From NCBI RefSeq assembly GCF_056746865.1, contig NZ_CM163382.1: a stretch of DNA of 64,000 bases. One strand, written 5' to 3'. Of this stretch, positions 31,599-32,119 are shown one piece after another; the stretch's first letter is position 1, and the number at the start of each line of letters is the position of its first letter. The notes below the pieces were generated by a model. That model ran no database searches and was not told the DNA's origin. It saw only the letters and a program-made list of their open reading frames with translations. The position numbers and the translations under genes were made by a program.

Positions 31599-31715
31599 AG
31601 CGTTACGTGATCTTTCCCTGACAGCAAACTGAATACAGAAACATATTGGTTGGAAATGCTATTTGACAGCAGATCCCGGTGGGCCTGCCACCATCTCTTC
31701 ACAAGCTTATGCTTA

Positions 31716-32027
31716 TTACATGCAAAACGTCCCGTTTTGCATCTTTGTGCCTACGGCACACCATGCTCTTTCCCTGACAATTGCCGCAGCACGCTGACCA
31801 TTATCGGCACTCAGATGTAGCAGTCCTTTTTTTCCCGGACCATCGGTGCGGGACATCACAGACGCCAGATATGCCAGCATCAGTGGGCCGGAGGCAGCCC
31901 CAACCTCACCGGTACAGGAAGTGAGCATCAGATGAGGGTAATCCGCCACTTTATGTTCCAGAGAACGCAGGACAGCCAGGACGCGGGCTTTCATGCTTTT
32001 GCCCTGAAAGGCATGGTCATTCCGCAT
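31716..32027 (-). CDS. Hypothetical protein fragment (103 aa), GC-richer than surroundings
   Basis: ORF between H-rpt copy 2 and the IS2-split gene; composition unlike the neighbouring AT-rich genes; likely a gene fragment of unknown origin. Confidence 0.25.
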   Translation of the reverse strand: MRNDHAFQGKSMKARVLAVLRSLEHKVADYPHLMLTSCTGEVGAASGPLMLAYLASVMSRTDGPGKKGLLHLSADNGQRAAAIVRERAWCAVGTKMQNGTFCM

Positions 32028-32119
32028 TGCATTTTTAAAGTTTTTTATCCATTATTTATTCTGATTAATAATCAAAATTGAAATCCTGTCTTTGAAATGT
32101 AATGGCAGTGCAACAATCA

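What the first reader, a model, noticed from the sequence alone, without database searches (positions are those of the whole stretch)
31599..32119. GC-richer gene fragment of unknown origin between H-rpt copy 2 and the IS2-split gene
The 103-aa ORF at 31716..32027 differs in composition from the surrounding AT-rich cassettes and has no recognisable start context. It may be the 3' remnant of a gene destroyed by the H-rpt insertion, possibly the tail of another toxin or immunity cassette.
Basis: inference. Interest (0 to 1): 0.25.

Follow-up and report, generated by a model that had tools for sequence, protein, structure and literature searches.

The report
Dead stub of T6SS chaperone gene
The GC-rich 103-codon reading frame is an ordinary pseudogene: a 203-bp leftover of tvpD, a type VI secretion chaperone gene, stranded in a decayed E. 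coli toxin/immunity island and cut on both sides next to insertion-sequence ends.

Summary
A 103-codon ORF lies on the minus strand at 31716-32027. Its core is 56% GC against 35-46% in the flanks, and it has no promoter or convincing ribosome-binding site.

It is not a toxin or immunity tail. Only codons 17-84 (nt 31777-31979) have homologues. They match residues 268-335 of ~340-aa PRK06147/TvpD proteins, 85% identical to a full-length Citrobacter copy. TvpD is the predicted co-chaperone encoded between the DUF2169 gene and PAAR-like (Tse7-type) effector genes in T6SS spike modules.

In Citrobacter and a Shigella-labelled contig, 3' stubs of this gene sit directly in front of orphan PAAR-like toxin/immunity cassettes. 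This is the usual scar of effector displacement by recombination.

In the window:
- The stub's 3' edge abuts a second H-rpt-type terminus at 31776. The ORF's last 19 codons are read from that IS-linked piece.
- Its 5' edge lies 5 nt from a relic IS terminus (31985-32006).
- The first 16 codons come from filler DNA.

The frame is therefore a chimera, and frameshifted or IS-hit variants occur in other strains. This is a new member of a known kind, of low interest.

A structured, unannotated ~112-nt H-rpt-linked element inside the span is the only unexplained part.

The parts
30330..31620 (-). H-rpt (ISEc1/ISAs1-family) copy 2, 1291 bp. The transposase frame is broken by an internal stop. Its right terminus ...GTGATCTTTCCCTG ends at 31620. 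Context: it overlaps the first 22 bases of the finding.
   Evidence: Termini and 1291-bp length by comparison with copy 1 at 28179-29469. Split transposase ORFs. PGAP annotation of the same element in E. coli 042.
31621..31776 (.). 156-bp H-rpt-linked piece ending in a second, directly oriented H-rpt-type terminus (CATGCTCTTTCCCTG, ends 31776). The core 31665-31776 is a conserved, hairpin-rich element. It supplies the ORF's last 19 codons (RERAWCAVGTKMQNGTFCM) and its stop.
   Evidence: The core is 97-100% identical in about 2850 of 5426 E. coli genomes. In the three loci examined it lies just outside the transposase-upstream end of an H-rpt. Fold z = -4.1 / -3.6. No Rfam family. CTTTCCCTG occurs in the window only at H-rpt ends and here.
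31777..31979 (-). tvpD (PRK06147, KAS-like T6SS co-chaperone) remnant: 203 bp, ORF codons 17-84, equal to residues 268-335 of a ~348-aa protein. It is truncated at both ends.
   Evidence: NF004798 profile 272-344 of 349. 85% aa identity to the Citrobacter full-length protein. DNA homology to three independent relatives stops at exactly these coordinates. The family HMM aligns only positions 268-340 of 342.
31980..32045 (-). 66-bp filler that supplies ORF codons 1-16. It contains a relic ISAs1-type terminus (CAGGGCAAAAGCATGAAAGCCC, read on the minus strand from 32006 down to 31985). It also holds an 18-bp stretch (32006-32023) identical to part of the immunity paralogue at 35118-35135.
   Evidence: 17/22 match to the H-rpt IR-down. 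It is the only non-H-rpt site with <=5 mismatches in the window, against 1 hit in 20 shuffled windows. The 18-mer and a relaxed 25-55 bp similarity. No homology to tvpD.
32046..32119 (-). Native 3' flank of the upstream immunity gene, ending in ATGGATA (32052-32046). These are the first 7 nt of a PAAR-like toxin gene whose body is gone. The A6 run at 32046-32041 puts this ATG out of frame with the ORF.
   Evidence: 90% identity with Salmonella L006 15041-15747, which continues ATGGATACGAACG... (MDTNVYINSREACS) before an ISAs1-like end. P0001 (111 aa, MDKNFKNAMRND...) is what an A5 run would encode.
31716..32027 (-). The 103-codon chimeric ORF itself: 16 filler codons, 68 tvpD codons and 19 codons read from the IS-linked piece.
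32120..34466 (-). Upstream neighbour: a 336-aa WD40/BNR-like immunity gene of the Tse7-type (PAAR-like/GHH2) cassette family. It is split by IS2 at about 32757-34088.
   Evidence: tblastn with the Citrobacter imm336 gives 77-81% identity in two pieces. The gene is intact in E. coli 042 and L007. IS2 ORFs.

Best explanation
The span holds a non-functional remnant of tvpD. This is the PRK06147 'KAS-like' gene that sits between the DUF2169 chaperone gene and a PAAR-like (DUF4150) GHH2-nuclease effector in Class II Tvp type VI secretion spike modules. New effector/immunity cassettes enter such modules by recombination within the conserved 3' part of tvpD. The old cassette is pushed downstream and keeps a tvpD 3' stub in front of it. 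The E. coli island between nfrB and cusS is a decayed array of such displaced cassettes. Shown: only 203 bp of the stub survive here (codons 268-335). Its 3' edge meets an H-rpt-type IS terminus exactly, and the toxin and immunity genes that should follow are missing. Its 5' edge lies 5 nt from a relic IS terminus. Inferred: ISAs1/H-rpt insertions followed by adjacent deletion or inter-copy recombination trimmed the stub. They also joined this array to an unrelated Rhs-derived deaminase/SUKH-3 cassette on the other side of H-rpt copy 2. The 103-codon ORF is an accidental fusion frame across three unrelated pieces and has no function of its own.
For: Identity of the fragment: NF004798/PRK06147 E=1.6e-8, profile 272-344/349. 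Longer fragments from other species match the same model at 1.5e-21. An exhaustive HMMER search finds 437 relatives; the full-length ones are 330-360 aa and are always matched over their last ~135 residues. The fragment is 85% identical to residues 268-335 of the Citrobacter 348-aa protein. Family role: PA0098 (PRK06147) is named TvpD and modelled as a co-chaperone of the Tse7 PAAR domain (PMC13373197). A PAAR gene is the first downstream gene for 52% of 407 homologues (PMC7714669). Displacement scars: Citrobacter L005 has full-length tvpD, toxin 1 and immunity; then a stub (aa 169-348), toxin 2 and immunity; then a stub (aa 311-348), toxin 3 and immunity. L007 has imm336, a stub (aa 159-340), an intact 526-aa toxin, imm346 and an H-rpt. 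Window array: GHH2 tip, two imm346 paralogues, a PAAR-like stub, imm336, a toxin-start relic and the tvpD stub. IS edges. Decay in other strains: a frameshift variant P0013 and an IS-truncated variant P0005. No promoter on the minus strand. General model: PMC5361080.
Against: The order of events is not reconstructed. No E. coli complete genome carries the intact precursor: megablast with L007 found nothing. The relic terminus at 31985-32006 rests on a 17/22 match. The three IS termini at 31620, 31776 and 32006 are all in direct orientation, which no simple single-insertion model predicts. The origin of 31621-31664 and most of 31980-32045 is unknown. PGAP annotates a 92-aa protein here, and expression was not examined.
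Confidence: 0.85

Rival explanations
1. The ORF (103 aa, or the 92-aa form PGAP annotates) encodes a functional small protein, for example a mini-adaptor or a regulator of the neighbouring immunity genes.
For: It is an open frame conserved at 97-100% in about 150 E. coli genomes. It is annotated as a CDS in RefSeq. A weak AGGG lies 9 nt before the internal ATG (sequence).
Against: It retains only 68 of ~348 residues of a thiolase-like fold. Both ends are read from unrelated DNA. No promoter-like site lies upstream. Frameshifted, A-run-shifted and IS-truncated variants coexist in the species. The high identity reflects recent shared ancestry of the whole island, not selection.
Confidence: 0.04
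2. One reading: it is the tail of a toxin or immunity gene whose body was destroyed by insertion of H-rpt copy 2.
For: It lies in an array of toxin stubs and immunity genes and next to an H-rpt.
Against: It has no similarity to any toxin or immunity protein of the array or of the related loci. It has strong similarity to TvpD. The gene runs towards the H-rpt, so the missing 5' 77% lies on the far side. The fragment abuts a separate outer terminus, not H-rpt copy 2 itself.
Confidence: 0.02
3. It is a remnant of a housekeeping or secondary-metabolism beta-ketoacyl-ACP synthase (FabH/KAS III type) unrelated to type VI secretion.
For: The NCBIfam model is named '3-oxoacyl-ACP synthase'. Full-length relatives give sub-threshold ACP_syn_III hits and a weak polyketide-synthase hit in the PDB.
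Against: The closest full-length relatives all lie in vgrG-DUF6484-DUF2169-X-PAAR-toxin modules. The fragment has no Pfam KAS hit. The literature assigns this family to T6SS accessory function.
Confidence: 0.03
4. The tvpD piece is passenger DNA picked up and moved by an H-rpt/ISAs1 element through use of alternative termini. It would then not be a relic of a cassette that once stood at this position.
For: IS-type termini lie at or near both edges (31776 and 31985-32006) and a third at 31620. The 156-bp piece travels with H-rpts between loci.
Against: All three termini point the same way, so no pair forms a transposable unit. The stub follows the imm336 immunity gene here, as in Citrobacter and L007. 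The tvpD piece is found only in this island in E. coli.
Confidence: 0.06

Closest known systems
TvpD / PRK06147 (PA0098 of the P. aeruginosa vgrG1b cluster; NCBIfam NF004798)
   Same: Residues 17-84 of the ORF align to the C-terminal 268-340 of the family, including the GEVGAASGPL motif. The closest full-length members sit between a DUF2169 gene and a PAAR-like GHH2 toxin gene.
   Different: Only about 20% of the protein is left and both ends are foreign. No vgrG, DUF6484 or DUF2169 gene lies nearby in the window. It scores 34 bits against a 342-bit family cut-off. It cannot be a working member.
Orphan effector/immunity arrays made by sequential displacement (V. cholerae aux clusters, PMC5361080; Rhs C-terminal displacement and orphan Rhs toxins, cited there)
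   Same: There are tandem immunity paralogues, truncated effector stubs, and stubs of the conserved upstream sequence in front of displaced cassettes.
   Different: The homology arm here is the 3' end of a separate accessory gene (tvpD), not the effector's own conserved N-terminal part. The array lies outside any T6SS cluster, between nfrB and cusS, and has been further cut by H-rpt, IS2 and (in strain 042) IS1.
H-rpt / ISEc1 (ISAs1 family) of Rhs elements
   Same: Copies 1 and 2 are 1291 bp with CAGGGAAAGAT... termini. The extra termini at 31776 and 32006 share this sequence.
   Different: The 156-bp piece and the relic terminus have no transposase. They are in direct, not inverted, orientation relative to the intact copy.

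Membership tests
TvpD / PRK06147 (NF004798) | Significant sequence match to the family profile | tested here: met
   NF004798 E=1.6e-8, ORF 15-87 against profile 272-344/349. An HMM built from 106 full-length members gives 6.7e-29.
TvpD / PRK06147 (NF004798) | Full-length protein of about 330-360 aa covering the whole profile and reaching the curated score (342 bits) | tested here: not met
   The ORF scores 34 bits and covers 73 of 349 profile positions. Nothing aligns upstream of residue 15. Even the full-length enterobacterial relatives score 229-250 bits, so they are related to the model's equivalogs rather than being equivalogs.
TvpD / PRK06147 (NF004798) | Gene lies downstream of vgrG-DUF6484-DUF2169 and immediately upstream of a DUF4150/PAAR-like effector gene | tested here: not met
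   In the window it is flanked by an immunity gene and IS ends. The synteny is met for the relatives: L005, L006, L008, L011 and L012.
TvpD / PRK06147 (NF004798) | [quoted passage not shown] | not testable with these tools
   Even for PA0098 this is a prediction from AlphaFold models (PMC13373197).
Orphan T6SS effector/immunity array (displacement model) | Several immunity paralogues in tandem together with truncated effector genes | tested here: met
   GHH2 tip 37439-37111, imm346 at 37058-36021 and 35906-34869, PAAR-like stub 34812-34540, and imm336 split by IS2.
Orphan T6SS effector/immunity array (displacement model) | Displaced cassettes are preceded by a stub of the conserved upstream sequence | tested here: met
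   Two stubs in Citrobacter, one in L007 and one in the window. All end at or near the tvpD 3' end and have different 5' limits.
Orphan T6SS effector/immunity array (displacement model) | No cognate delivery module (full-length tvpD, DUF2169, DUF6484) in the same genome | tested here: inconclusive
   No E. coli genome holds more than 17% of a Citrobacter-type tvpD at DNA level. Only 13 of 5426 genomes carry the E. coli A16-type module, and none of them appears among the island-bearing strains listed. A protein-level search of those genomes was not possible.
H-rpt / ISEc1 (ISAs1 family) | 1291-bp unit with CAGGGAAAGAT... terminal repeats and a 378-aa DDE transposase | tested here: met
   This holds for copies 1 and 2, although copy 2's transposase has an internal stop. 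It does not hold for 31621-31776 or 31985-32006, which have a terminus only.
   All 14 hits are fragments of the same kind. No Pfam family was found and no promoter-like site.
FabH / KAS III (Pfam ACP_syn_III and relatives) | Pfam KAS domain above the gathering threshold | tested here: not met
   The fragment has no Pfam hit. Full-length relatives score 19.7-23.1 bits against a 24-bit cut-off.

The most novel reading that the evidence does not exclude
The hairpin-rich ~112-175-nt element that accompanies H-rpt ends, and that forms the 3' third of this ORF, may be a functional part of an extended H-rpt. It could be an alternative outer terminus or a structured regulatory RNA/DNA that lets the supposedly immobile H-rpt capture and reshuffle flanking toxin/immunity cassettes. 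On that reading the tvpD stub was placed here by that activity rather than by passive decay.
Probability: 0.1. Interest if true: 0.45.

Novelty: new member of a known kind. Interest (0 to 1): 0.15.

Why it matters
It matters little on its own. The result turns a 'hypothetical protein' annotated in about 150 complete E. coli genomes (WP_000647578.1 in strain 042) into a recognised pseudogene. It also identifies the nfrB-cusS island as a decayed array of Tse7-type (PAAR-like GHH2 nuclease) cassettes whose closest intact relatives are in Citrobacter and Salmonella T6SS clusters. The recurrence of tvpD 3' stubs in front of orphan cassettes suggests that the 3' end of this recently named accessory gene is the recombination arm for effector exchange in Class II Tvp modules. 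That point may be useful to people mapping effector turnover. The retained immunity genes may protect against such toxins from competitors, but this was not tested.

Tried and rejected
- **Pfam:** a scan of the ORF gave nothing.
- **Word-indexed protein searches:** the ORF and the 143-aa Citrobacter fragment returned only other fragments. The exhaustive HMMER search was needed to reach full-length relatives.
- **tblastn within the window:** no second copy and no parent gene.
- **Citrobacter tvpD against E. coli:** a DNA search found only the same 203 bp.
- **Intact L007 cassette against complete E. coli genomes:** megablast found no match.
- **Upstream homology:** I tested whether the ORF's first 16 residues are a diverged continuation of TvpD. 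The family HMM with filters off does not extend past residue 15, so I rejected this.
- **Rfam:** a scan of 31400-32200 gave no family.
- **Terminator:** the hairpin at 31720-42 does not meet the scan's criteria.
- **PDB sequence searches:** no informative structure for the immunity protein or for TvpD.
- **Short metagenomic TvpD hits (P0016, P0050):** these are cut by contig ends, so they say nothing about stubs, though they confirm the tvpD-to-PAAR-toxin synteny.
- **K-12 RhsE:** I expected it to carry the 112-nt element, but it does not.
- **MITE hypothesis for the 156-bp piece:** rejected, because its inner side has no inverted terminus.

Full report
**Observation**

The region is GC-richer than its surroundings: 53.7% in a 300-bp window against 33-43% on either side. 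The enrichment is concentrated in 31777-31979, which is 56% GC. No sigma-70-like site lies upstream on the minus strand. The ATG at 32027 has no Shine-Dalgarno. In E. coli 042, where 31480-32140 is 100% identical, RefSeq calls a 92-aa 'hypothetical protein' from an internal ATG.

The window's locus is an island between nfrB and cusS. One coordinate needs correcting. H-rpt copy 1 is 28179-29469, which is 1291 bp with termini CAGGGAAAGAT.../...ATCTTTCCCTG. By the same termini, copy 2 is 30330-31620. The finding's first 22 bases therefore belong to the IS.

**What the ORF is**

Pfam finds nothing. NCBIfam NF004798 (PRK06147, '3-oxoacyl-ACP synthase') matches ORF residues 15-87 to profile positions 272-344 of 349, with E=1.6e-8. 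All close homologues in the 5.8-billion-protein collection are similar short fragments from Escherichia, Shigella, Salmonella and Citrobacter.

An exhaustive HMMER search with the longest fragment (143 aa) found 437 relatives. The full-length ones are 330-360 aa and are always matched over their last ~135 residues. The Citrobacter sp. Cf108 locus carries a full-length 348-aa copy, which scores 249 bits on NF004798. The window's ORF residues 17-84 are 85% identical to residues 268-335 of that copy.

At the DNA level, homology to the Citrobacter, Salmonella and 'Shigella' genes begins and ends at exactly 31979 and 31777, a stretch of 203 bp. An HMM built from 106 full-length members, run with filters off, aligns only positions 268-340 of 342 and nothing upstream. 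So 68 of about 348 codons survive. The first 16 and last 19 codons of the ORF come from other DNA.

**What the parent gene does**

In the relatives, the full-length gene always lies in the order vgrG, DUF6484, DUF2169, this gene, PAAR-like/GHH2 toxin, immunity. This holds in Citrobacter L005, Salmonella L006, E. coli A16 L008 and two metagenome contigs.

This is the P. aeruginosa vgrG1b arrangement. Monlezun, Earl and Coulthurst (EMBO J 2026, PMC13373197) name PA0098 (PRK06147) TvpD. They model it with TvpA (DUF2169) as a co-chaperone of the DUF4150 PAAR domain of Tse7 in 'Class II' Tvp systems. Liu et al. 2020 (PMC7714669) had proposed PRK06147 as an adaptor from gene neighbourhoods. The chaperone function itself is a prediction and could not be tested here.

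**Why a 3' stub sits here**

The related loci show a consistent pattern.

- **Citrobacter L005:** full-length tvpD, toxin 1 and immunity are followed by a tvpD stub (residues 169-348, 96.7% identical to the resident gene), toxin 2 and immunity. A second stub (residues 311-348), toxin 3 and immunity follow that.
- **Contig L007 (labelled Shigella flexneri):** an intact imm336 is followed by a stub (residues 159-340, ending at the natural stop), an intact 526-aa PAAR-like GHH2 toxin, imm346 and an H-rpt.

In these two loci four displaced cassettes are preceded by a tvpD 3' piece with a different 5' limit each time. One further downstream cassette, in Salmonella L006, has no stub. This is the footprint expected if incoming cassettes integrate by recombination within the 3' part of tvpD and push the old cassette downstream. 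The same logic is described for V. cholerae effector/immunity arrays and for Rhs elements (PMC5361080). The integration mechanism is inferred, not shown.

Read on the minus strand, the window holds the same kind of array in decayed form:

- GHH2 toxin tip, 37439-37111
- two imm346 paralogues, 37058-36021 and 35906-34869
- PAAR-like N-terminal stub, 34812-34540
- imm336, split by IS2
- the immunity gene's native 3' flank down to 32046, ending in ATGGATA (32052-32046), the first seven bases of a toxin gene, as shown by Salmonella L006
- 66 bp of filler
- the tvpD stub

.

**The edges**

The 3' edge of the stub (31777) abuts ...CATGCTCTTTCCCTG. This is a second H-rpt-type terminus ending at 31776, oriented like the true end of copy 2 at 31620. 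The 156 bp between the two termini are not part of the 1291-bp H-rpt.

The core of that piece, 31665-31776, is 97-100% identical to an unannotated element present once in about 2850 of 5426 complete E. coli genomes. In the three loci examined (the B-strain min-5 locus, O157 RhsE and this window) it lies just outside the transposase-upstream end of an H-rpt. Homology to the window stops exactly at the outer terminus in the other two. The ORF's C-terminal RERAWCAVGTKMQNGTFCM and its stop codon are read from this piece.

The 5' edge of the stub (31979) lies 5 nt from CAGGGCAAAAGCATGAAAGCCC, read on the minus strand from 32006 down to 31985. This matches the H-rpt IR-down at 17 of 22 positions. 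It is the only site outside the true H-rpt ends with five or fewer mismatches in the 64-kb window, against one such hit in 20 shuffled windows.

Next to it, 32006-32023 is an exact 18-mer also found inside the immunity paralogue at 35118-35135.

I conclude that IS-associated rearrangements trimmed the stub on both sides. They removed the toxin and immunity genes that should follow it. They also joined this array to an Rhs-derived deaminase-tip/SUKH-3 cassette on the far side of H-rpt copy 2. The order of events is not resolved, and three termini in direct orientation are not explained by a single insertion.

**Function of the ORF**

I judge the ORF to be an accidental fusion frame.

- It keeps about 20% of a thiolase-like fold.
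- It has foreign ends and no promoter or convincing RBS.
- It varies between strains in ways typical of decay. A 111-aa form starts at the relic toxin ATG when the A-run is A5 rather than the window's A6 (P0001). There is also a frameshifted form (P0013) and a form truncated by another IS (P0005).

No E. coli complete genome holds a Citrobacter-type full-length tvpD at DNA level. Only 13 of 5426 carry a different, A16-type Class II module, whose TvpD is 51% identical to the fragment. None of the 13 appears among the island-bearing strains listed. The array therefore appears to be orphan, but this was not tested at the protein level.

**Comparison and verdict**

The fragment is derived from the TvpD/PRK06147 family but is not a working member. 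The profile match is met. Full length, curated score and defining synteny are not met in the window. The island belongs to the known class of orphan effector/immunity arrays. Its particular feature is that the homology arm is the 3' end of a separate accessory gene.

It is a gene remnant, and an H-rpt-type end does cut it. It is not a toxin or immunity tail, and the main loss is on the side away from H-rpt copy 2. Novelty: new member of a known kind; interest is low.

The one part I cannot explain is the conserved element at 31665-31776. It is strongly structured: four hairpins, with z = -4.1 and -3.6 against shuffles. It has no Rfam family, and it travels with H-rpt ends.

Noticed in passing
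window 31665-31776 (within 31621-31776): An unannotated ~112-nt element (about 175 nt in most genomes) with four consecutive hairpins. It ends in an H-rpt-type terminus and is 97-100% conserved, once per genome, in about 2850 of 5426 E. coli. In the three loci examined (O157 RhsE, B-strain min-5 and this window) it lies just outside the transposase-upstream end of an H-rpt; it is absent from K-12 RhsE. Fold z is -4.1 / -3.6 and there is no Rfam family. Its role is unknown.
   Followed up: partly
window 31985-32006 (minus strand): A relic ISAs1/H-rpt-type terminus (CAGGGCAAAAGCATGAAAGCCC, 17/22 to IR-down) lies 5 nt from the 5' edge of the tvpD homology. Together with the termini at 31620 and 31776, this makes three IS ends in direct orientation within 390 bp. 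O157 L004 likewise has tandem termini (CCCTGTGATCTTTCCCTG).
   Followed up: partly
window 32006-32023 and 35118-35135: An exact 18-bp repeat links the filler next to the tvpD stub with the immunity paralogue, at the part encoding GMTMPF. Relaxed alignment extends it to 25-55 bp. It may be a micro-fragment of a lost immunity gene.
   Followed up: partly
window 32041-32052: ATGGATA is the first 7 nt of a PAAR-like toxin gene kept after the immunity gene's 3' flank. The following A6 run is inferred to be A5 in other strains, giving the 111-aa P0001 that starts at this toxin ATG.
   Followed up: yes
window 28179-37439: The nfrB-cusS island is a composite. A decayed Tse7-type (PAAR-like/GHH2) effector/immunity array is joined through H-rpt copies to an Rhs-derived piece: an Rhs core fragment at about 29470-29673, a YwqJ-deaminase tip at 30155-30355 and a SUKH-3 immunity gene at 29691-30152. 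IS2 splits the 336-aa immunity gene here. Strain 042 instead has IS1 inside H-rpt copy 2.
   Followed up: partly
L008 (E. coli A16, NZ_CP028758.1 1011171-1032171): A complete Class II Tvp T6SS module (vgrG, DUF6484, DUF2169, a 337-aa TvpD annotated as hypothetical, a DUF4150 effector, then a second PAAR-like toxin with WD40-like immunity) is present in only 13 of 5426 complete E. coli genomes. It lies next to an integrating-conjugative-element gene.
   Followed up: partly
L003 6001-6084 (E. coli CFSAN061763, RhsB-side locus): A 79%-identical copy of part of the H-rpt-linked element overlaps the 3' end of a SEL1-repeat gene, beside ISAs1 and IS630 fragments downstream of an Rhs element.
   Followed up: no
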